Translations under genes and position numbers: made by a program
Notes under the pieces: generated by a model
The model's input: only the letters and a program-made list of their open reading frames with translations
What the model was told of the DNA's origin: nothing
Databases searched by the model: none
Sequence record: MG966531
Direction: 5' to 3' (one strand)
Length of the DNA stretch: 39,752 bases
Source of the DNA: Escherichia phage Ebrios
Part shown: positions 1,670-36,198 of the stretch, piece by piece
Numbering within the stretch: position 1 is the stretch's first letter
Layout: each line of letters starts with the position of its first letter

Positions 1670-2194
1670 ATGAAACGCAATGCTAACGCTTATTATGAAC
1701 TGCTGGCCGCTGCCGTTGAGGCATTCAATGTGCGCATCCAAGAAGACCAATTGACCGAGCACCACGATTATCACGCTGCCTTGCACGAAGTGGTTGACAA
1801 GATGGTTCCGCACTGTTACTGGGAAATCTTCATGGTCATGGCCGCTGATGGTATTGACGTTGAGTTTGACGACGCTGGACAGATGCCAGACACCAAGGAC
1901 GTTACCCGAATCCTGCAAGCTCGCATCTATGAGGCGCTATATAACGACGTGCCTAGCGATAGTGGGATTGAATGGTACGAAGGCGAGGAGGAGGAGGAGT
2001 CTGAGGAGCCCTGCGAGTGGTACGTAATCAATGACGAGGAGTCTGGCCCGTATGTTGTGGCCTATTACGACTCACTAGAGGCAGCCATTGAGGCAGCCAA
2101 TGAGCGATACAACACGCTTGGCAAGCGGTGCCACGTTGAGGACGATGTCAGCTCAGAAGTGCTTTACAAGCCGGTTCCTACTGCTAACGAGTGA
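1670..2194 (+). CDS. Strongly acidic early protein of unknown function (gene 0.6 position)
   Basis: 174-aa ORF with RBS TGAGGT; contains the run EGEEEEESEEPCE. I do not recognise it as a T7 protein. Confidence 0.7.
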   Translation: MKRNANAYYELLAAAVEAFNVRIQEDQLTEHHDYHAALHEVVDKMVPHCYWEIFMVMAADGIDVEFDDAGQMPDTKDVTRILQARIYEALYNDVPSDSGIEWYEGEEEEESEEPCEWYVINDEESGPYVVAYYDSLEAAIEAANERYNTLGKRCHVEDDVSSEVLYKPVPTANE

Positions 2195-3459: not shown

Positions 3460-6111
3460 ATGACTGTAATCGCAATCGAAAAGAACGACTTCTCCGACGT
3501 TGAGCTGGCTGTTATCCCGTTCAACACACTGGCAGACCACTACGGTGAGAAGCTGGCCCGCGAGCAGTTGGCACTTGAGCACGAAGCTTATGAAATGGGT
3601 GAGGCTCGTTTCCGCAAGATATTCGAGCGTCAGCTTAAGGCTGGTGAGGTTGCCGATAACGCTGCCGCTAAGCCGCTGGTCGCAACCCTGCTCCCCAAGA
3701 TGATTGAGCGAATCAACATTTGGTTCGAGGAGGTTTCCGCTAAGCGTGGCAAGCGCCCGACTGCCTTTAAGTTCCTGCAAGAGGTCAAGCCCGAGGCTAT
3801 CGCTTACATCACCATCAAGACCGTTCTGGGTGCTCTGACCAGTGCTGAGCAAACCACTGTGCAAGCCGCTGCGTCTGCTGTTGGTCGCGCCATTGAGGAC
3901 GAAGCCCGCTTTGGTCGCATCCGTGACCTTGAGGCTAAGCACTTCAAGAAGAACGTGGAGGAACAGCTCAACAAGCGCGTGGGCAACGTCTACAAGAAGG
4001 CTTTCCTGCAAGTGGTTGAGGCTGATATGCTGAGCAAGGGACTGATGGGTGGCGAAGCGTGGTCTAGCTGGCACAAAGAGGACTCCATTCATGTTGGTGT
4101 GCGTTGCATCGAAATGCTCATTGAGTCAACCGGTCTGGTCGTCCTTGAGCGTCAAAACGCTGGCGTTGTTGGCGCTGATGCTGAGACCCTGAGCCTTGCC
4201 TCTGAGTACGCTGACGCAATCGCCACCCGCGCTGGTGCTCTTGCTGGTATCTCCCCAATGTATCAACCTTGTGTAGTTCCGCCGAAGCCTTGGACAACCG
4301 TGACTGGCGGAGGCTACTGGGCTAACGGTCGTCGTCCGCTGGCTCTGGTGCGTACCCACGGCAAGAAGGCGCTGATGCGCTATGAGGACGTTTACATGCC
4401 TGAGGTTTACAAGGCGGTCAACCTTGCACAAGCCACCGCATGGAAAATCAACAAGAAGGTGCTGGCGGTAGCCAACGAGATTACCAAGTGGAAGCACTGC
4501 CCTGTTGAGGACATTCCGGCAATCGAGCGCGAGGAGTTGCCTGTTAAACCGGACGACATAGACGAGAACCCTGAGGCGCTGACCAACTGGAAACGCGCTG
4601 CTGCTGCTGTGTACCGCAAGGACAAGGCCCGCAAGTCTCGCCGTCTGTCCCTTGAGTTTATGCTTGAGCAGGCCAACAAGTTCGCAAACCACAAGGCCAT
4701 TTGGTTCCCTTACAACATGGACTGGCGTGGTCGCGTTTACGCGGTCTCCATGTTCAACCCGCAAGGCAACGATATGACCAAGGGCTTGCTGACTCTGGCT
4801 AAGGGCAAGGCAATCGGTAAGGAAGGTTTCTACTGGCTGAAAATCCACGGTGCAAACTGTGCTGGTGTCGATAAGGTTCCGTTCCCTGAGCGCATCAAGT
4901 TTATCGAAGACAACCACGAGCACATCATGGCGTCTGCTAAGAACCCGCTTGAGTACACTTGGTGGGCCGAACAGGATAGCCCGTTCTGCTTCCTTGCGTT
5001 CTGCTTTGAGTACGCTGGTGTGATGCACCACGGCTTGTCTTACAACTGCTCTCTGCCGCTGGCGTTCGATGGCTCCTGCTCTGGTATCCAGCACTTCTCC
5101 GCGATGCTGCGAGACGAAGTTGGTGGCCGTGCGGTGAACCTGCTCCCGAGCGAGACCGTGCAGGACATTTACGGCATCGTAGCCAAGAAGGTGAACGAAA
5201 TCCTGCAACGCGATGTTATCTCTGGCACCGATGACGAGTTGGTCACTGAAACCGACAAGACCACTGGGGAAATCACTGAGAAAACCGTACTGGGCACTCG
5301 CACTCTGGCGGGCCAGTGGCTGGCCTATGGGGTCAACCGTAGCGTGACCAAACGTTCCGTAATGACTCTGGCGTATGGCTCCAAGGAGTTCGGTTTCCGT
5401 CAGCAAGTCCTTGAGGACACTATCCGTCCGGCTATCGACTCCGGCAAGGGCCTGATGTTCACCATCCCGAACCAAGCGGCTGGCTACATGGCTAAGCTGA
5501 TTTGGGACTCTGTGAGTGTGACCGTGGTTGCTGCGGTAGAGGCCATGAAGTGGCTCCAAAGCGCCGCTAAACTGCTGGCCGCTGAGGTCAAGGACAAGAA
5601 GACTGGCGAGGTTCTGCGTAACCGCTGCGCTGTTCACTGGGTAACTCCCGATGGTTTCCCTGTGTGGCAGGAGTACCGCAAGCCGCTGCAAACCCGTCTG
5701 AACCTGATGTTCCTCGGTCAGTTCCGCTTGCAGCCAACCATCAACACCAACAAGGACTCTGGGATTGACGCGCACAAGCAGGAGTCGGGCATTGCGCCTA
5801 ACTTCGTTCACTCTCAGGACGGCTCTCACCTGCGCAAGACCGTAGTATGGGCTCACGAAAAGTACGGCATCGAGTCTTTCGCTCTGATTCACGACTCTTT
5901 CGGCACCATTCCGGCTGACGCTGGCAACCTGTTCAAGGCTGTGCGTGAGACAATGGTTGACACCTACGAGAACTGCGATGTTCTGGCTGACTTCTACGAG
6001 CAGTTTGCAGACCAGCTCCACGAGTCCCAACTGGACAAGATGCCTGCTCTGCCGAAGAAAGGTAACCTGAACCTGCGAGACATTCTTGAGTCTGACTTTG
6101 CATTCGCTTAA
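3460..6111 (+). CDS. 1: Gene 1, single-subunit DNA-dependent RNA polymerase of T7 specificity
   Basis: 883 aa, near-collinear with T7 RNAP as I remember it, including the C-terminal ...LRDILESDFAFA; the PTINTNKDS region matches T7 rather than T3, consistent with the CGACT promoters. Confidence 0.98.
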   Translation: MTVIAIEKNDFSDVELAVIPFNTLADHYGEKLAREQLALEHEAYEMGEARFRKIFERQLKAGEVADNAAAKPLVATLLPKMIERINIWFEEVSAKRGKRPTAFKFLQEVKPEAIAYITIKTVLGALTSAEQTTVQAAASAVGRAIEDEARFGRIRDLEAKHFKKNVEEQLNKRVGNVYKKAFLQVVEADMLSKGLMGGEAWSSWHKEDSIHVGVRCIEMLIESTGLVVLERQNAGVVGADAETLSLASEYADAIATRAGALAGISPMYQPCVVPPKPWTTVTGGGYWANGRRPLALVRTHGKKALMRYEDVYMPEVYKAVNLAQATAWKINKKVLAVANEITKWKHCPVEDIPAIEREELPVKPDDIDENPEALTNWKRAAAAVYRKDKARKSRRLSLEFMLEQANKFANHKAIWFPYNMDWRGRVYAVSMFNPQGNDMTKGLLTLAKGKAIGKEGFYWLKIHGANCAGVDKVPFPERIKFIEDNHEHIMASAKNPLEYTWWAEQDSPFCFLAFCFEYAGVMHHGLSYNCSLPLAFDGSCSGIQHFSAMLRDEVGGRAVNLLPSETVQDIYGIVAKKVNEILQRDVISGTDDELVTETDKTTGEITEKTVLGTRTLAGQWLAYGVNRSVTKRSVMTLAYGSKEFGFRQQVLEDTIRPAIDSGKGLMFTIPNQAAGYMAKLIWDSVSVTVVAAVEAMKWLQSAAKLLAAEVKDKKTGEVLRNRCAVHWVTPDGFPVWQEYRKPLQTRLNLMFLGQFRLQPTINTNKDSGIDAHKQESGIAPNFVHSQDGSHLRKTVVWAHEKYGIESFALIHDSFGTIPADAGNLFKAVRETMVDTYENCDVLADFYEQFADQLHESQLDKMPALPKKGNLNLRDILESDFAFA

Positions 6112-6131
6112 TACGACTCACTATAAGGAGC
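6109..6131 (+). promoter_or_regulatory. Phage promoter phi1.1A (variant, A at +1)
   Basis: TAATACGACTCACTATAAGGAGC, overlapping the gene 1 stop codon. Confidence 0.7.
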
Positions 6132-6146
6132 TCCCGATGGTGGTCT

Positions 6147-6169
6147 TAATACGACTCACTATTGGGAGA
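6147..6169 (+). promoter_or_regulatory. Phage promoter phi1.1B
   Basis: TAATACGACTCACTATTGGGAGACC; the same 25-mer recurs at 8135. Confidence 0.75.
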
Positions 6170-8199: not shown

Positions 8200-8226
8200 C
8201 TACAAGACTCACTAAAGGAGGCCATT

Positions 8227-8478
8227 ATGCTGATGAACAACTACCTGACCAATCCGGCTCACCCGCTGAGCCCTCTGAATCCAATCAGCCCAATTAGCAT
8301 TTGGAATCAAGGATGCTCGCGAGAGGAGACCGTTGAGGTAGTCTCGCAACGCCAACACCGCGAGCTTGACCCTAAAGAGAAACTGGTACTGGGTGCTGGG
8401 TTCGGTGTCTGCCTTGCTCTGCTGCTGACCCTTGTGCTGGTTATGGTGTTCGGAGAGATTGGCCGACCGCGCCACTAA
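8227..8478 (+). CDS. Hypothetical small protein with C-terminal transmembrane helix (gene 1.4/1.5 position)
   Basis: 83 aa; RBS AAAGGAGG; Pro-rich N-terminus and hydrophobic stretch LVLGAGFGVCLALLLTLVLVMVFG. Not recognised. Confidence 0.55.
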   Translation: MLMNNYLTNPAHPLSPLNPISPISIWNQGCSREETVEVVSQRQHRELDPKEKLVLGAGFGVCLALLLTLVLVMVFGEIGRPRH

Positions 8479-8498
8479 TACGACTCACTAAAGGAGAC
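8476..8498 (+). promoter_or_regulatory. Phage promoter phi1.6-type (CACTAAAGGAG class II variant)
   Basis: TAATACGACTCACTAAAGGAGAC. Confidence 0.75.
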
Positions 8499-10742: not shown

Positions 10743-11197
10743 TGTCACGAGTACAATTCAAACAGAGGGAGGCGACTAACGCCATTTTCGTACACTGCTC
10801 TGCAACCAAGGCAACTCAGGACGTTGGTGTCCGTGAGATTCGCCAGTGGCACAAGGAGCAGGGCTGGCTTGACGTAGGCTACCACTTCATCATTCGCCGT
10901 GATGGTACTGTTGAAGATGGTCGAGACGTTAACGCCGTGGGCTCTCACGCCCGTGGTCACAACCACAACTCCGTAGGCGTGTGCCTTGTTGGAGGCATTG
11001 ACGAGAAGGGTCGGCACGAAGCCAACTTCACCCCTCAACAGATGTCTTCCCTGCGCACTCTGCTGGAAGTCCTGATGGACAAGTACCCGAGCGCGGTACT
11101 GAAAGCTCACCATGATGTTGCACCGAAGGCTTGCCCTTCGTTCGACCTGCAACGCTGGTGGAAGCACAATGAGCTGGTCACTTCTGACCGAGGCTAA
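10742..11197 (+). CDS. 3.5: Gene 3.5 lysozyme (N-acetylmuramoyl-L-alanine amidase; RNAP inhibitor)
   Basis: M.RVQFKQRE...AIFVHCSATK...VGVREIRQWHKEQGWLDVGYHFII.RDGTVE...APKACPSFDL.RWW..NELVTSDRG as in T7 gp3.5. Confidence 0.95.
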   Translation: MSRVQFKQREATNAIFVHCSATKATQDVGVREIRQWHKEQGWLDVGYHFIIRRDGTVEDGRDVNAVGSHARGHNHNSVGVCLVGGIDEKGRHEANFTPQQMSSLRTLLEVLMDKYPSAVLKAHHDVAPKACPSFDLQRWWKHNELVTSDRG

Positions 11198-11217
11198 TAC
11201 GACTCACTAAAGGGAGA
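11195..11217 (+). promoter_or_regulatory. Phage promoter phi3.8
   Basis: TAATACGACTCACTAAAGGGAGA; the transcript start could form the hairpin gggagagcgtaatgttctccc. Confidence 0.8.
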
Positions 11218-11255
11218 GCGTAATGTTCTCCCTCATTCAACTAAAGGAGGAAGCT

Positions 11256-13435
<2,180 letters not shown>

Positions 13436-14051: not shown

Positions 14052-14074
14052 TTATTCGACTCACTAATGGAGGT
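14052..14074 (+). promoter_or_regulatory. Degenerate phage promoter (phi4.7 position)
   Basis: TTATTCGACTCACTAATGGAGGT: core GACTCACTA retained, upstream TAATAC altered to TTATTC. Confidence 0.4.
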
Positions 14075-14081
14075 AGACACT

Positions 14082-14510
14082 ATGCGTAGCCAATTCGTAA
14101 TCGAAGCCGAGATTGCCAAACTGCAAGCTGAACTAGAAGACGTTAAGGCCCACGAATCGAAAGTCATTGCGGCTGCCCACATCCTGACCAACCTTGGCTG
14201 GACTTGGACTCGCAAAGACGGCTGGAAGAAACCGGTAGCTCCGATTAAGCCTACCGTGTTCGACAAGGACACCATGACCCACATCAAGAAGGGCGACTTC
14301 TGCCTGTACGCTAAGGGAACAGTTCTGGAAGGCTTTGTGCTTGTCCGTGAAGTGAACGGTGCCGAATGCACTGTATCCTATGTGTCCAGTATCGCAGAGT
14401 TCAACCGTCCGGTTGTCGCTACGTTGAAATTCCGTTGTCATGCAAACATGCTAAAGGTTGTCTCTAGCCAGACACTTGTTGACTGCATGAAGAACAACAT
14501 GGTTATTTAA
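14082..14510 (+). CDS. 4.7: Gene 4.7 protein
   Basis: 142 aa from the ATG at 14082 with RBS GGAGG; the ATG at 14067 lies inside the promoter core and has no RBS. Confidence 0.7.
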   Translation: MRSQFVIEAEIAKLQAELEDVKAHESKVIAAAHILTNLGWTWTRKDGWKKPVAPIKPTVFDKDTMTHIKKGDFCLYAKGTVLEGFVLVREVNGAECTVSYVSSIAEFNRPVVATLKFRCHANMLKVVSSQTLVDCMKNNMVI

Positions 14511-14529
14511 CCACATTTGGAGAATCACT

Positions 14530-16644
14530 ATGCTCGTTTCAGACATCGAAGCTGATGCACTCTTGGACAAAGTTACTAAGTTCCACTGTGGTGTAATCTA
14601 TGACTATCGCACAGACGAATACGTCAGTTACCGCCCTAAGGACTTCGCTGCGTACCTTGATGCGCTTGAAGCGGAGGTTGCACGAGGCGGGCTGATTGTG
14701 TTCCATAATGGTCACAAGTATGACGCTCCGGCTCTTGAGAAGCTGGCTAAGCTGGTGCTTGACCGTGAGTTCCACATCCCCAGAGAGAACTGCATCGACA
14801 CTCTCGTTATGTCTCGCCTGATTCACTCGAACCTCAAGGACACCGATATGGGCCTCCTGCGCTCCGGTAAACTGCCGGGCAAACGCTACGGTTCCCACGC
14901 TCTGGAAGCATGGGGCTACCGCTTAGGCGTAATGAAGGGTGAGTACAAGGACGACTTCAAGGCTGCTCTTGAGGAGCAAGGCGAGGAGTACGTTGAGGGC
15001 ATGGAGTGGCGCTCATTCAACGAGGACATGATGGCCTATAACGTTCAGGACGTTGTGGTCACTAAGGCACTCCTTGAGAAGCTGCTTTCCGACAAGCACT
15101 ACTTCAAGCCTGAGATTGACTTCACGGATGTCTCTGCGGATACCTTCTGGATGGAAGCTATTGAGGCGATTGACGTGGAGCACAGAGCCGCTTGGTTGCT
15201 CGCTAAGCAGGAGCGCAATGGCTACCCGTTCAACACCAAGGCTATCGAAGACCTGTACGTTGAGCTGGCCTCTCGCCGCTCTGAGCTGCTGATGCGCCTG
15301 ACTGATACCTTCGGCTCTTGGTATCAGCCAAAGGGCGGAACCGAAATGTTCCTACACCCGCGCACTGGTCAGCCGCTCCCGAAGTATCCGCGAGTGAAGA
15401 CCCCGAAGGTAGGTGGTATCTTCAAGAAGCCCAAGAACAAAGCCCAACGTGAAGGCCGTGAGCCCTGTGAGCTGGACACTCGGGACTTCGTTGCTGGTGC
15501 AGTTTACACTCCGGTGGAGCACGTAGTCTTCAACCCTTCGTCCCGTGACCACATCCAGAAGAAGCTCCAAGAGGCTGGCTGGGTTCCCGAGAAGTTCACC
15601 GATAAGGGTGCTCCGGTAGTGGACGACGAGGTGCTTGAAGGCGTTGTTGTGGATGACCCCGAGAAGCAAGCCGCTATAGACCTCATTAAGGAGTACCTGA
15701 TGATTCAGAAGCGAATCGGTCAGAGTGCTGAGGGCGACAAAGCGTGGCTGCGCTACGTTGCGGAGGACGGTAAGATTCATGGTAGTGTTAACCCGAACGG
15801 TGCGGTTACTGGCCGTGCCACTCACGCCTTCCCGAACCTTGCGCAAATACCTGGGGTTCGGTCTCCGTATGGCGAACAATGTCGTGCTGCATTCGGGGCT
15901 GAACACCATCTGGATTACGTCACTGGGGAACCTTGGGTTCAAGCTGGTATTGACGCATCTGGTCTGGAGCTGCGCTGCTTGGCCCACTTCATGGCTCGAT
16001 TCGACAACGGCGAGTATGCCCACGAGATTCTGAACGGCGACATTCACACCAAGAACCAGTTGGCTGCCGAGCTGCCGACCCGAGACAACGCCAAGACCTT
16101 CATCTATGGTTTCCTCTATGGGGCCGGAGACGAGAAGATTGGTCAGATTGTTGGTGCTGGTAAGGAACGCGGTAAGGAGCTCAAGAAGAAATTCCTTGAG
16201 AATACCCCTGCGATTGCTGCGCTCCGTGAGTCCATCCAATCGACTCTCGTTGAGAGTTCCCACTGGGTGGCTGGTGAGCAGCAAGTCAAGTGGAAGCGCC
16301 GCTGGATTAAGGGCATGGATGGTCGTAAGGTTCACGTCCGTAGCCCACACGCTGCGCTGAACACTGTGCTGCAATCCGCTGGTGCGCTTATCTGCAAACT
16401 GTGGATTATCAAGACCGAGGAAATGCTCATTGAGAAAGGCTACAAGCACGGCTGGGATGGAGACTTTGCGTATATGGCTTGGGTTCACGACGAAATCCAA
16501 GTGGCCTGCCGCACTGAGGAAATCGCCAAGGCAGTCATTGATACCGCCCAAGAGGCTATGCGCTGGGTAGGTGAGCATTGGAACTTCCGTTGCCTTCTGG
16601 ACACCGAAGGTAAGATTGGCCCGAACTGGGCTGTGTGCCACTAA
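14530..16644 (+). CDS. 5: Gene 5 DNA polymerase (family A, with 3'-5' exonuclease)
   Basis: 704 aa, same as T7 gp5; N-terminus M.VSDIEA.ALL..VTKFHCGVIYDY...EYVSYRP.DF.AYLDALEAEVARGGLIVFHNGHKYD matches. Confidence 0.98.
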   Translation: MLVSDIEADALLDKVTKFHCGVIYDYRTDEYVSYRPKDFAAYLDALEAEVARGGLIVFHNGHKYDAPALEKLAKLVLDREFHIPRENCIDTLVMSRLIHSNLKDTDMGLLRSGKLPGKRYGSHALEAWGYRLGVMKGEYKDDFKAALEEQGEEYVEGMEWRSFNEDMMAYNVQDVVVTKALLEKLLSDKHYFKPEIDFTDVSADTFWMEAIEAIDVEHRAAWLLAKQERNGYPFNTKAIEDLYVELASRRSELLMRLTDTFGSWYQPKGGTEMFLHPRTGQPLPKYPRVKTPKVGGIFKKPKNKAQREGREPCELDTRDFVAGAVYTPVEHVVFNPSSRDHIQKKLQEAGWVPEKFTDKGAPVVDDEVLEGVVVDDPEKQAAIDLIKEYLMIQKRIGQSAEGDKAWLRYVAEDGKIHGSVNPNGAVTGRATHAFPNLAQIPGVRSPYGEQCRAAFGAEHHLDYVTGEPWVQAGIDASGLELRCLAHFMARFDNGEYAHEILNGDIHTKNQLAAELPTRDNAKTFIYGFLYGAGDEKIGQIVGAGKERGKELKKKFLENTPAIAALRESIQSTLVESSHWVAGEQQVKWKRRWIKGMDGRKVHVRSPHAALNTVLQSAGALICKLWIIKTEEMLIEKGYKHGWDGDFAYMAWVHDEIQVACRTEEIAKAVIDTAQEAMRWVGEHWNFRCLLDTEGKIGPNWAVCH

Positions 16645-16664
16645 TACGACTCACTAAAGGAGGC
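16642..16664 (+). promoter_or_regulatory. Phage promoter upstream of gene 5.5 (class II CACTAAAGGAGG type)
   Basis: TAATACGACTCACTAAAGGAGGCC, overlapping the gene 5 stop; the same leader CACTAAAGGAGGCCATTATG recurs at 8210-8229. Confidence 0.75.
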
Positions 16665-16668
16665 CATT

Positions 16669-16971
16669 ATGGCTATGACCAAACGATACAAAGTAACCTT
16701 CGAGATTACCGCGAAGCTGACCACCAAGGATGTGGACGAGTTCACCAAGGGTCTTATTGAGACCTCCCGCAAAATCGTTGAAGGTAAACCCGTTAATCCA
16801 GAACTTCGTGCTTGCGTAATGGCTGCCCTTGAGGGAGGCGTTGAGGCCGCTGTTGAGTGCGCCTATCGCCGTGGTGTCCGTGAACTGATTCGCGATGCCT
16901 ACAACGAAATGTGCAGCGAGGAACGCGCAGCCACTAAGTTCTCACCAGCAACCGTGGAGGTGTTGAAATGA
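16669..16971 (+). CDS. 5.5: Gene 5.5 protein (H-NS-binding in T7)
   Basis: 100 aa starting MAMTKRYKVTFEITAKL, resembling my recollection of T7 gp5.5; RBS AAAGGAGG. Confidence 0.7.
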   Translation: MAMTKRYKVTFEITAKLTTKDVDEFTKGLIETSRKIVEGKPVNPELRACVMAALEGGVEAAVECAYRRGVRELIRDAYNEMCSEERAATKFSPATVEVLK

Positions 16972-17177
16972 GTGATTACATCAAGGTTCTTCAAGCAATC
17001 AAGGGCTGCCCTAAGTCCTTTCAGTCTAACTACGTGCGGAACAATGCGAGCCTCGTTGCTGAGGCCGCTTCCCGTGGGCACATTTCGTGCCTGACTACTG
17101 GTGGCCGCAACGCTGGGGTCTGGGAGATTACCGCATACGGTGTCCAATTCCTTGACGAAATGGGAGGTTGCGTATGA
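16968..17177 (+). CDS. 5.7: Gene 5.7 protein
   Basis: 69 aa, same length as T7 gp5.7; ATGA overlap with the 5.5 stop. Confidence 0.7.
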   Translation: MSDYIKVLQAIKGCPKSFQSNYVRNNASLVAEAASRGHISCLTTGGRNAGVWEITAYGVQFLDEMGGCV

Positions 17178-17404
17178 GCATCCGTAAGTGCTGGAATGAC
17201 GAGGTGGTCTCTATGACTGCCGAAGCGTGGAACGAGACCTTGAAGAACATCAAGGAACTCGAAGACCGCATTGAGGAGCTTGAGCAGATTTTGGCTGACC
17301 ACGAAGAAGACGTTGCGTTCCTAGATGCGCTGCGTTCTGCTGGCGTGGACAACTGGGACGGCTACGACGTTGCTTGCGAGATTCACAAAGGGGAGGGTTT
17401 CTGA
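17174..17404 (+). CDS. 5.9: Gene 5.9-like acidic protein (possible RecBCD inhibitor)
   Basis: 76 aa from ATG 17174 with RBS GGGAGG; acidic, WNDE... and ELEDRIEELEQ resemble T7 gp5.9, but longer than the 52-aa T7 protein. Confidence 0.6.
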   Translation: MSIRKCWNDEVVSMTAEAWNETLKNIKELEDRIEELEQILADHEEDVAFLDALRSAGVDNWDGYDVACEIHKGEGF

Positions 17405-18318
17405 TGGCTGTACTGAGTCTCAAAGAGTTCCGCGATATTCGCGAAGGCTGTGACGATAAGGGCATCCTTGTGATGGATGGCGACTGGCTGGTCTTTCAGG
17501 CAATGAGTGCCGCTGAGTTCGATGCCTCTTGGGAGGAGGAGATTTGGCACCGCTGCTGTGACCACGCTAAGGCCCGCCAGATTCTTGACGATTCCATCAA
17601 GTCCTACTCAACCCGCAAGAAGGCGTGGAACGGTGCGCCTATCGTTCTCTCCTTTACGGACACCATCAACTGGCGTAAGGAGCTGGTTGACCCGACATAC
17701 AAGGAGAACCGTAAGGCCACCAAGAAGCCTGTTGGCTACTTCGAGTTCCTTGACGCCCTGTTCGAGCGCCATGAGTTCTACTGTGTGCGCGAGGACATGC
17801 TGGAAGGTGATGACGTTATGGGCATCATTGGGTCTAACCCAAGTGCCTTTGGCGCCCGCAAGGCGGTCATTATCTCCTGCGACAAGGACTTCAAGACCAT
17901 CCCTGACTGCGATTTCCTGTGGTGTACCACTGGGAACATCCTGACCCAGACCCAAGAGTCCGCCGATTGGTGGCACCTGTTCCAGACCATCAAAGGTGAC
18001 ATCACCGATGGCTACTCTGGGATTGCTGGCTGGGGTGACTCCGCTGAGGGCTTCCTCAATGACCCGTTCATAACCGAGCCTCAAGTCTCCGTATTGAAGT
18101 CCGGTAAGAACAAAGGGCAGGAGGTCACGAAGTGGGTCAAACGCGCTCCTACCGAATCTGAGACGCTGTGGGACTGCATCGTGTCAATCGGTGCGAAAGC
18201 TGGGATGACCGAGGAGGATGTCATTAAGCAAGGCCAGATGGCCCGCATCCTTCGGTTCAACGACTACAACATCGACACCAAGGAGATTACGCTATGGAGA
18301 CCTTCGGCATCGTTCTGA
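17404..18318 (+). CDS. 6: Gene 6 5'-3' exonuclease
   Basis: ...REGCDDKGILVMDGDWLVFQAMSAAEFDASWEEEIWHRCCDHAKARQIL.DSIKSY... as in T7 gp6. Confidence 0.95.
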   Translation: MAVLSLKEFRDIREGCDDKGILVMDGDWLVFQAMSAAEFDASWEEEIWHRCCDHAKARQILDDSIKSYSTRKKAWNGAPIVLSFTDTINWRKELVDPTYKENRKATKKPVGYFEFLDALFERHEFYCVREDMLEGDDVMGIIGSNPSAFGARKAVIISCDKDFKTIPDCDFLWCTTGNILTQTQESADWWHLFQTIKGDITDGYSGIAGWGDSAEGFLNDPFITEPQVSVLKSGKNKGQEVTKWVKRAPTESETLWDCIVSIGAKAGMTEEDVIKQGQMARILRFNDYNIDTKEITLWRPSASF

Positions 18319-18350
18319 TAGTCGGCCTTGTGGCATTGCCGTATGTGTTG

Positions 18351-18404
18351 ATGATTTTCAAAACTGTCAAGTTCTTCAACGCAATGTCTAAGATTAAGTG
18401 GTAA
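18351..18404 (+). CDS. Possible gene 6.3-like micro-ORF
   Basis: MIFKTVKFFNAMSKIKW (17 aa), or 24 aa from the GTG at 18330; no clear RBS; call is by position only. Confidence 0.25.
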   Translation: MIFKTVKFFNAMSKIKW

Positions 18405-18475
18405 ACTCAAGGCCCTTATCGAGTCCGAAATTAATACGACTCACTATAGGAGATAGGGGCCTTTATGATTATTAC
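18404..18475 (+). promoter_or_regulatory. RNase III processing hairpin (R6.5-like) with embedded phi6.5 promoter
   Basis: aactcaaggccc...taatacgactcactatagg...ggggcctttatgatt: the hairpin arms flank the promoter. Confidence 0.6.
18432..18454 (+). promoter_or_regulatory. Phage promoter phi6.5 (class III)
   Basis: TAATACGACTCACTATAGGAGAT. Confidence 0.85.
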
Positions 18476-23647: not shown

Positions 23648-23696
23648 CTAGCATAACCCCTTGGGGCCTCTAAACGGGTCTTGAGGGGTTTTTTCG
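23648..23696 (+). terminator. Tphi late transcription terminator
   Basis: CTAGCATAACCCCTTGGGGCCTCTAAACGGGTCTTGAGGGGTTTTTTCG matches the T7 Tphi sequence almost base for base. Confidence 0.92.
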
Positions 23697-36060: not shown

Positions 36061-36177
36061 ATGGCCCTTGAAACTTCACAGGCAGGAGACCAGCTCTTAT
36101 GGGCACTCCCTGTTGGTGGAGCTATTGCCACTAACATTGTGGCTATACAGTTCATAGGCCTTACACTTAACGACTAA
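36061..36177 (+). CDS. Small hydrophobic ORF between tail fibre and holin genes (unknown)
   Basis: 38-aa ORF MALETSQAGDQLLWALPVGGAIATNIVAIQFIGLTLND with RBS TAAGGAGA 7 nt upstream; T7 has no gene here as far as I recall. Confidence 0.35.
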   Translation: MALETSQAGDQLLWALPVGGAIATNIVAIQFIGLTLND

Positions 36178-36198
36178 CTATATGGAGACATTTCGTGT

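What the first reader, a model, noticed from the sequence alone, without database searches (positions are those of the whole stretch)
16642..16668. Extra phage promoter immediately upstream of gene 5.5
A full class II promoter (TAATACGACTCACTAAAGGAGGCC) overlaps the gene 5 stop codon and would drive 5.5, 5.7 and 5.9. I do not recall a promoter at this position in T7, where gene 5.3 follows gene 5. Independent transcription of the 5.5-5.9 block (an H-NS binder and a putative RecBCD inhibitor in T7) could boost anti-host functions in this phage.
Basis: partly seen in the sequence, partly recalled or inferred. Interest (0 to 1): 0.4.

Follow-up and report, generated by a model that had tools for sequence, protein, structure and literature searches.

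The report
Clade-specific extra T7-type promoter before gene 5.5
This T7-like phage (Ebrios) and its four closest relatives carry a complete phage-polymerase promoter wedged between the DNA polymerase gene and the anti-host gene 5.5, a position where T7 and every other relative examined has none; it is an ordinary kind of element in an unusual place.

Summary
TAATACGACTCACTAAAGGAGGC lies at 16642-16664 (+). Its first three bases are the gene 5 stop codon. The predicted start is G16659, and the gene 5.5 ATG is at 16669. A matrix built from T7's 17 promoters scores it 33.9 bits; T7's own class II promoters score 25.9-35.8. It matches T7 phi1.5 at 22 of 23 positions. The window's RNA polymerase is 90% identical to T7's and has an almost unchanged specificity loop.

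T7 has no promoter between phi4.7 and phi6.5; gene 5.3, a PD-(D/E)XK endonuclease, sits there instead. Among 80 related viral contigs, 50,697 phage records and one metagenome scan, only the IME15 clade has this promoter: IME15, PZL-Ah1, avDM11-UST, KFSA9 and this phage. It is identical in all five, and none of the four database records of relatives annotates it.

No terminator follows before Tphi at 23655-23694. The promoter would therefore add transcripts for 5.5, 5.7, 5.9, gene 6 and beyond, not only for 5.5-5.9.

Function is inferred, not shown. Conservation alone is weak evidence: the chance that a given 23-mer is invariant is about 0.16.

Verdict: a new member of a known kind, a class II T7-type promoter ("phi5.5"). 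Interest is low to moderate.

The parts
16642..16664 (+). Phage RNA polymerase promoter, positions -17 to +6 ('phi5.5'): TAATACGACTCACTAAAGGAGGC
   Evidence: Scores 33.9 bits on the T7 matrix. Matches T7 phi1.5 at 22/23 positions and the class III consensus at all 13 positions from -17 to -5. Identical in IME15, PZL-Ah1, avDM11-UST and KFSA9.
16642..16644 (+). TAA stop codon of gene 5 (DNA polymerase), which is also promoter positions -17 to -15
16659..16659 (+). Predicted transcription start (+1, G)
   Evidence: Inferred by register with T7's mapped promoters. Not measured.
16659..16663 (+). GGAGG Shine-Dalgarno sequence of gene 5.5, which is also +1 to +5 of the transcript; 5 nt then separate it from the ATG
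   Evidence: T7 phi1.5, 1.6, 4.3 and 4.7 and window sites 8476 and 14052 have the same arrangement.
14530..16644 (+). Gene 5, DNA polymerase (704 aa, 90.8% identical to T7 gp5)
16669..16971 (+). Gene 5.5 (100 aa), H-NS inhibitor family; a very divergent allele, 31% identical to T7 gp5.5 and at most 43% to any phage outside the clade
16968..17177 (+). Gene 5.7 (69 aa, 84% identical to T7 gp5.7)
   Evidence: The function of T7 gp5.7 is taken from PMC5569994.
17174..17404 (+). Gene 5.9-like (76 aa), RecBCD inhibitor family
   Evidence: Pfam PF25708 at E=2e-13 and PHROG 4790. The start follows the homologous IME15 CDS.
17404..18318 (+). Gene 6, exonuclease (87% identical to T7 gp6); also downstream of the promoter
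14052..14074 (+). Nearest upstream phage promoter (phi4.7 equivalent)
18432..18454 (+). Nearest downstream phage promoter (phi6.5 equivalent)
23655..23694 (+). Tphi terminator hairpin and T-run, identical to T7's; the first terminator downstream of the promoter
8471..8496 (+). phi1.6-equivalent promoter region, sharing 26 identical nt (GCCACTAATACGACTCACTAAAGGAG) with 16637-16662
8206..8229 (+). 3' part of a degenerate promoter-like site, sharing 24 identical nt (GACTCACTAAAGGAGGCCATTATG) with 16648-16671

Best explanation
The element is a functional class II-type promoter for the phage's own T7-like RNA polymerase. It sits in the 24-nt gap between gene 5 and gene 5.5.

Proposed mechanism, inferred from T7:
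- The polymerase's specificity loop and AT-rich recognition loop bind positions -17 to -5, which here match the consensus at all 13 positions.
- The enzyme melts roughly -4 to +2 and initiates at G16659.
- The transcript begins GGAGGCCAUUAUG, so the gene 5.5 ribosome-binding site is its 5' end. T7 phi1.5, 1.6, 4.3 and 4.7 are built the same way.

No terminator lies before Tphi. The promoter therefore adds transcripts for 5.5 (H-NS inhibitor family), 5.7, 5.9 (RecBCD inhibitor family), gene 6 and the genes up to gene 10. These come on top of read-through from phi4.7 and earlier promoters. It splits what would be the longest promoter-free stretch of the middle region, 14052 to 18432.

Shown here: the sequence, its position, its restriction to the IME15 clade, the cognate polymerase and the identity of the downstream genes. 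Inferred: that initiation happens, how strong it is, and whether it benefits the phage.
For: - Sequence and score: the site scores 33.9 bits on a matrix of T7's 17 promoters, inside the range of T7's proven class II promoters (25.9-35.8). It is 22/23 identical to T7 phi1.5, with 0.00 matches expected by chance.
- Polymerase: the window's gene 1 product is 90.4% identical to T7 RNA polymerase. The specificity-loop stretch QTRLNLMFLGQFRLQPTINTNKDS and the AT-rich loop stretch AKRGKRPTAF are both unchanged. The window's other 16 strong sites sit at T7-syntenic positions.
- Orientation and spacing: it is on the coding strand, 10 nt upstream of an ATG, as at four T7 class II promoters.
- Conservation: the 23-mer and its flanks (16636-16719) are invariant in five phages that differ at 7.6% of aligned columns. 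Several other class II promoters in the same genomes vary by 1-3 nt.
- Downstream: genes identified; no terminator until Tphi.
Against: - There is no transcript or in vitro data for any member of the clade.
- Conservation is weak evidence. A pre-specified 23-mer is invariant by chance with P about 0.16. An invariant run of 84 nt or more occurs somewhere in 29% of permutations, and the invariant run extends 51 nt into the 5.5 coding sequence.
- T7 and all other relatives examined do without a promoter here, so any benefit is not general.
- A Shine-Dalgarno sequence at the extreme 5' end may translate 5.5 poorly from this particular transcript.
Confidence: 0.85

Rival explanations
1. The promoter may be active, but it is a selectively neutral by-product of ectopic recombination or gene conversion between promoter copies, not an adaptation to raise 5.5-5.9 expression. 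Other promoter cassettes in the same genome supplied the sequence. Short homologies served as anchors: CCACTAAT on the left and CTA(A/T)AGGAG on the right.
For: The element reads like a patchwork of two other sites in the window. It shares 26 nt with the phi1.6 region at 8471-8496, including 5 nt upstream of the promoter, and 24 nt with 8206-8229, including the SD, spacer and ATG. The junction in other Teseptimavirus genomes, TAATTCTATAGGAGA, already holds both anchors. The element's conservation is not significantly above background.
Against: It is retained unchanged in five isolates from different countries and hosts, while other class II promoters in those genomes drift. A strong extra promoter in a 40-kb genome with tightly programmed transcription is unlikely to have no effect.
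Confidence: 0.2
2. The promoter is ancestral to Teseptimavirus. It was lost in the T7 lineage through a short internal deletion and, in T7 itself, through insertion of the 5.3 endonuclease cassette. On this reading the IME15 clade retained it; it did not gain it.
For: T7-group junctions read CAC TAA T-TCTATAGGAGA, which is TAAT plus CTATAGGAGA, a promoter missing about 7 nt. In T7 the 11-mer ACTATAGGAGA lies immediately before 5.5. It is the only copy of that 11-mer outside promoters, against about 0.01 expected. The junction is a proven insertion hot spot for PD-(D/E)XK, HNH and small ORFs.
Against: TAA is the stop codon and AGGAGA is the SD, so only about 5 nt of the resemblance is unexplained. 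Outgroup genera (T3-like, Berlin-like, Przondovirus) have short junctions that do not resemble their own promoters. A single gain in the IME15 lineage needs one step fewer. CTATAG also encodes the last codon and the stop of T7 gene 5.3.
Confidence: 0.25
3. The sequence is a promoter look-alike that is not used in vivo. Its conserved role would be only as the gene 5 stop codon plus the gene 5.5 ribosome-binding site.
For: The stop codon and the SD account for 8 of the 23 positions. The site has no experimental support. Conservation is not distinguishable from that of the adjacent coding sequence.
Against: All 80 relatives achieve stop plus SD with a 15-21 nt junction lacking the 13-nt binding region. 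A perfect -17 to -5 match by chance has an expectation of 0.00. The near-identical T7 phi1.5 is listed among the T7 promoters annotated in V01146.
Confidence: 0.07
4. The promoter serves mainly as a replication origin or recombination hot spot, as the phi1.1A/B primary origin and the secondary origins at T7 promoters do, with gene expression secondary.
For: From established knowledge of T7, transcription from phage promoters can prime DNA replication. Variable-site density is high just upstream, at 16450-16635, with different groupings of the five phages. This is compatible with recombination nearby.
Against: No AT-rich region follows the promoter; coding sequence starts 10 nt downstream. Divergence from T7 begins 40-50 nt inside gene 5.5, not at the promoter.
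Confidence: 0.05

Closest known systems
T7 class II promoter phi1.5 (T7 start site 7778)
   Same: 22 of 23 positions are identical; only +6 differs. Both have A at -2 and a GGAGG start that doubles as the Shine-Dalgarno sequence of a gene starting a few nt downstream.
   Different: The location differs: phi1.5 precedes gene 1.5, while this element lies between genes 5 and 5.5, where T7 has no promoter. This element also overlaps the stop codon of an essential gene.
T7 promoters phi1.6, phi4.3 and phi4.7 (promoter-embedded ribosome-binding sites)
   Same: The architecture is the same: the promoter fills a short intergenic gap, the transcript starts with GGAG, and the ATG follows at about +11 to +15.
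   Different: Those promoters are positionally conserved across the T7 group. This one is confined to the IME15 clade.
T7 gene 5/5.3/5.5 region
   Same: The flanks are homologous: the gene 5 C-terminus (...CH*) and the 5.5 N-terminus (MAMTK...).
   Different: T7 carries a 357-nt PD-(D/E)XK endonuclease gene (5.3) and no promoter. The window has a 24-nt gap that is a promoter.
Junction in 5.3-less T7-group phages such as phiA1122
   Same: Gene 5 is directly followed by 5.5, and the sequences TAAT and CTATAGGAGA are shared.
   Different: The junction is 19 nt long and lacks the core ACGACTCA. No site of 14 bits or more on the T7 matrix is found there.

Membership tests
T7-type single-subunit RNA polymerase promoter | 23-bp conserved sequence from -17 to +6, with the binding region -17 to -5 matching the consensus | tested here: met
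   All 13 positions from -17 to -5 match, and 19/23 match the class III consensus. The site scores 33.9 bits, against 25.9-38.6 for T7's 17 promoters.
T7-type single-subunit RNA polymerase promoter | A cognate polymerase with matching recognition elements is encoded in the same genome | tested here: met
   Gene 1 (3460-6111) is 90.4% identical to T7 RNA polymerase. The specificity loop and the AT-rich recognition loop are essentially unchanged.
T7-type single-subunit RNA polymerase promoter | Same orientation as the genes, and part of a genome-wide set of like sites | tested here: met
   Every site of 15 bits or more is on the + strand, and these sites are syntenic with T7's and with those of KFSA9 and IME15.
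T7-type single-subunit RNA polymerase promoter | Transcription initiates at +1 G in vitro or in vivo | not testable with these tools
   No transcript data were found for Ebrios, IME15, PZL-Ah1, avDM11-UST or KFSA9.
T7 class II (middle) promoter subclass | Departs from the invariant class III 23-mer and lies in the DNA-metabolism gene region | tested here: met
   It differs from the consensus at -2, +3, +4 and +6, the same kind of departures as T7 phi1.5, 1.6 and 4.3, and it lies between genes 5 and 5.5.
T7 class II (middle) promoter subclass | Middle timing, weaker than class III, and shut off through lysozyme (gp3.5) inhibition | not testable with these tools
   Needs infection time courses. 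A gp3.5 homologue is present, 79% identical to T7's.
T7-type replication origin (promoter plus AT-rich region) | An AT-rich non-coding stretch immediately downstream of the promoter | tested here: not met
   The 5.5 coding sequence begins 10 nt after +1, and there is no AT-rich spacer.
Free-standing homing endonuclease insertion at the gene 5/5.5 junction (T7 5.3 type) | An endonuclease ORF between genes 5 and 5.5 | tested here: not met
   The gap is 24 nt with no ORF. T7 5.3 is a PD-(D/E)XK protein, and relatives carry HNH or small ORFs there.

The most novel reading that the evidence does not exclude
The gene 5/5.5 junction carried this promoter in the ancestor of T7 and its close relatives. 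The T7 lineage then destroyed it, by a roughly 7-nt internal deletion in phiA1122-type phages and by invasion of the 5.3 endonuclease cassette in T7. On this reading the ACTATAGGAGA just before T7 gene 5.5 is a promoter fossil. It would be a case of mobile endonuclease genes and small deletions rewiring the transcription map of a model phage.
Probability: 0.25. Interest if true: 0.35.

Novelty: new member of a known kind. Interest (0 to 1): 0.25.

Why it matters
T7's promoter map is usually treated as the template for all close relatives. Here a small clade that infects E. coli, Aeromonas and Stenotrophomonas has an additional, perfectly formed middle promoter directly in front of the host-takeover genes 5.5, 5.7 and 5.9 and the exonuclease gene 6. 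The same clade lacks a phi4c equivalent.

If the promoter is active, it changes the relative dosage of these genes against the DNA polymerase gene. It would also be a natural example of promoter gain, or loss in T7, in a very well understood regulatory system.

The practical value is modest. Annotators of IME15-like genomes should add the promoter, and it is an easy target for testing how promoter placement tunes anti-defence gene expression.

Tried and rejected
- RNA structure in the leader: folds of 16659-16740, 16610-16740 and 16630-16690 are no more stable than shuffles (z = -0.16, +0.57, +0.55). No Rfam family matches anywhere in the window. I found no riboregulator or RNase III-like hairpin at the site.
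- The promoter as the exact left boundary of an imported 5.5 cassette: rejected. Identity to T7 stays high through the first 40-50 nt of gene 5.5 and drops only after about 16700.
- Conservation as proof of function: the invariant 84-nt run is only the second longest in 3.5 kb, and runs of that length or more arise in 29% of permutations.
- Search for the same junction elsewhere: only IME15 in IMG/VR, none in JGI metagenomes, and only the five IME15-clade records in the phage collection.
- Literature: searches for a described 'phi5.5' promoter or for transcript maps of this clade found nothing relevant. The Ebrios genome announcement and the KFSA9 paper do not mention promoters. The IME15 announcement is not held in the library.
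- T7's left junction TGATAC as half of a split promoter: I first read it that way. Other 5.3-bearing phages lack TAC there, so that part is probably coincidence.

Full report
**What the window is.** The window is 39,752 bases long. Its nearest database relative is Stenotrophomonas phage IME15, at 96% identity over the tested region. Length and relationship match the genome announcement of Escherichia phage Ebrios: 39,752 bp, 52.9% G+C, related to IME15 (PMC6013611). That paper lists ORFs only and says nothing about promoters.

**The observation.** The sequence around the finding reads gtgtgccacTAATACGACTCACTAAAGGAGGCCATTATGGCT.
- TAA at 16642-16644 ends the 704-aa DNA polymerase ORF, 14530-16644.
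- In the register of T7 promoters, -17 to +6 is 16642-16664 and +1 is G16659.
- The gene 5.5 ATG is at 16669.

The 21-mer with up to 3 mismatches occurs 11 times, always on the + strand, with 0.00 expected from shuffles.

I built a position weight matrix from the 17 promoters annotated in the T7 record V01146. It scores the site 33.9 bits. T7's own class II promoters score 25.9-35.8, its class III promoters 38.6, and the best non-promoter site in T7 scores 10.1. The site is identical to T7 phi1.5 at 22 of 23 positions and to the consensus at all 13 positions of the binding region, -17 to -5.

**Comparison with T7.** V01146 annotates no T7 promoter between phi4.7 (13915) and phi6.5 (18545). Gene 5 is followed by gene 5.3 and then 5.5. 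The T7 sequence reads ...tgccacTGAtacaggaggctactcATG (start of 5.3) ... ggcataaaactataggagaaattattATG (start of 5.5). T7 gp5.3 is a PD-(D/E)XK endonuclease by Pfam (PF11645, E=1e-10).

**How widespread is it?**
- I collected 80 viral contigs encoding close relatives of the gene 5 C-terminus and extracted the gene 5/5.5 junction of each. Only the IME15 contig has the promoter.
- T7-group phages without 5.3 have a 19-nt junction, CACTAATTCTATAGGAGAAATTATTATG. Przondovirus, T3-like and Berlin-like phages have 15-21 nt junctions that carry only a Shine-Dalgarno sequence.
- Sixteen contigs have an inserted ORF at the junction: 5.3-like PD-(D/E)XK, HNH, or small ORFs of 53-126 aa.
- Scanning the same loci with the T7 matrix finds phi4.7 and phi6.5 in every T7-specificity phage. 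Nothing at or near the junction reaches 14 bits except in IME15.
- In the 50,697-record phage collection the junction is found only in IME15 (two records), Aeromonas phages PZL-Ah1, avDM11-UST and KFSA9.
- An exact-pattern scan for the gene 5 end fused to the promoter (TGYCAYTAATACGACTCACTA) finds only IME15 in IMG/VR and nothing in JGI metagenomes.
- None of the four database records of relatives annotates a promoter here.

**Is it likely to work?**
- *Polymerase.* The window's gene 1 product (3460-6111) is 90.4% identical to T7 RNA polymerase. The specificity-loop stretch QTRLNLMFLGQFRLQPTINTNKDS and the AT-rich loop stretch AKRGKRPTAF are both unchanged.
- *Other promoters.* The window's other strong sites fall at T7-syntenic places: OL, 1.1A, 1.1B, 1.3, 1.5, 1.6, 2.5, 3.8, 4.3, 4.7, 6.5, 9, 10, 13, 17 and OR. 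The same set, including the gene 5/5.5 site, recurs in KFSA9 and IME15. None of the three genomes has a phi4c equivalent.
- *Architecture.* The promoter fills a short intergenic gap, the transcript begins GGAG(G), and an ATG follows about 10-15 nt later. T7 phi1.5, 1.6, 4.3 and 4.7 are built the same way.
- *Conservation.* Across the five clade genomes, 16636-16719 is invariant, while 7.6% of aligned columns vary. This is only weak support. A pre-specified 23-mer is invariant by chance with P about 0.16. The 84-nt run is the second longest in 3.5 kb, and runs of that length or more appear in 29% of permutations. It is still notable that several other class II promoters differ by 1-3 nt among Ebrios, KFSA9 and IME15, and this one does not.
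- *RNA structure.* The leader shows no RNA structure beyond shuffled controls, and no Rfam family matches the window.

**What it would transcribe.** The downstream genes are:
- 5.5: Pfam PF11247, E=5e-9; PHROG 1452 'Gp5.5-like host HNS inhibition', E=2e-30.
- 5.7: PHROG 1334; 84% identical to T7 gp5.7, a host RNA polymerase inhibitor per PMC5569994.
- A 76-aa 5.9 homologue: Pfam PF25708 'gp5.9 RecBCD inhibitor', E=2e-13.
- Gene 6 exonuclease: 87% identical to T7 gp6.

The pattern scan finds no terminator between the promoter and the phi9/phi10 region. A copy of T7's Tphi hairpin, identical in sequence, lies at 23655-23694. The promoter would therefore add to transcription of everything from 5.5 to gene 10, not of 5.5-5.9 alone. 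It divides the 4.4-kb promoter-free interval 14052-18432 into 2.6 kb and 1.8 kb.

**Origin.** Gene 5.5 is strikingly divergent: 31% amino-acid identity to T7 gp5.5 and at most 43% to any phage outside the clade. It lies between conserved genes 5 (91%) and 5.7 (84%). Gene 5.9 is also divergent. However, a nucleotide identity profile against T7 shows that similarity continues through the promoter-proximal 40-50 nt of 5.5 and falls only after about 16700. The promoter is therefore not the edge of an imported cassette; it lies between two colinear, homologous flanks.

The element shares 26 nt with the phi1.6 region (8471-8496) and 24 nt with a degenerate site (8206-8229). This is compatible with templated patching from other promoter copies.

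The T7-group junction TAAT-TCTATAGGAGA looks like a promoter lacking about 7 nt. T7's ACTATAGGAGA before 5.5 is the only copy of that 11-mer outside promoters. This permits the alternative that the promoter is ancestral and was lost in the T7 lineage. Stop codon and SD explain most of the resemblance, and outgroups lack any promoter here. I therefore rate gain in the IME15 lineage as more likely, and loss at about 0.25.

**Verdict.** It is a previously unannotated, clade-specific instance of a thoroughly known element type. Activity is inferred with high confidence from the sequence and the cognate polymerase. Adaptive value is unproven. Interest is low to moderate.

Noticed in passing
window 2063-2085 (+): TATTACGACTCACTAGAGGCAGC scores 22 bits on the T7 matrix. 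It lies inside the ocr-like ORF 1670-2194 and is identical in KFSA9 and IME15. T7 has no counterpart. It could be a second extra phage promoter, upstream of the kinase and RNA polymerase genes.
   Followed up: partly
window 8200-8229 (+): A degenerate promoter-like site, CTACAAGACTCACTAAAGGAGGC (18 bits). Its last 17 nt plus the following CATTATG are identical to 16648-16671. IME15 has a related site, but KFSA9 has none at 15 bits or more.
   Followed up: partly
window 11195-13420 (gene 4 region): No equivalent of T7 promoter phi4c is present in Ebrios, KFSA9 or IME15. The clade therefore has phi5.5 but lacks phi4c.
   Followed up: partly
window 16669-16971 and 17174-17404: Genes 5.5 and 5.9 are hypervariable islands. 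Gene 5.5 is 31% identical to T7's, and gene 5.9 is not detected by tblastn with the T7 protein. They lie between well conserved genes 5 (91%), 5.7 (84%) and 6 (87%). Nucleotide identity to T7 falls to 28-55% inside them.
   Followed up: partly
loci L010, L012, L014, L017, L020, L032, L035, L047, L074, L078, L080, L081, L085, just after locus position 2953: The gene 5/5.5 junction is an insertion hot spot in relatives. It holds PD-(D/E)XK (T7 5.3-like), HNH endonuclease and several unrelated small ORFs of 53-126 aa, each with its own SD.
   Followed up: partly
L003 (T7) 16833-16843: ACTATAGGAGA lies directly upstream of T7 gene 5.5 and is the only copy of that 11-mer in T7 outside annotated promoters. 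It overlaps the last codon and the stop of gene 5.3. It is either a promoter fossil or a coincidence.
   Followed up: partly
window 16408-16557: Within the gene 5 C-terminal region, KFSA9 alone carries a dense cluster of substitutions, which suggests a recombinant patch. Just upstream of the promoter (16572-16635), Ebrios and KFSA9 share alleles against the other three phages.
   Followed up: no
window 6109-6169: The phi1.1A and phi1.1B equivalents are only 38 nt apart, against 75 nt in T7.
   Followed up: no
window 36166-36188 (+): A weak promoter-like site before the holin region: 13.8 bits here, but 23.4 bits in KFSA9 and 20.1 bits in IME15. T7 has no phage promoter at that position.
   Followed up: no
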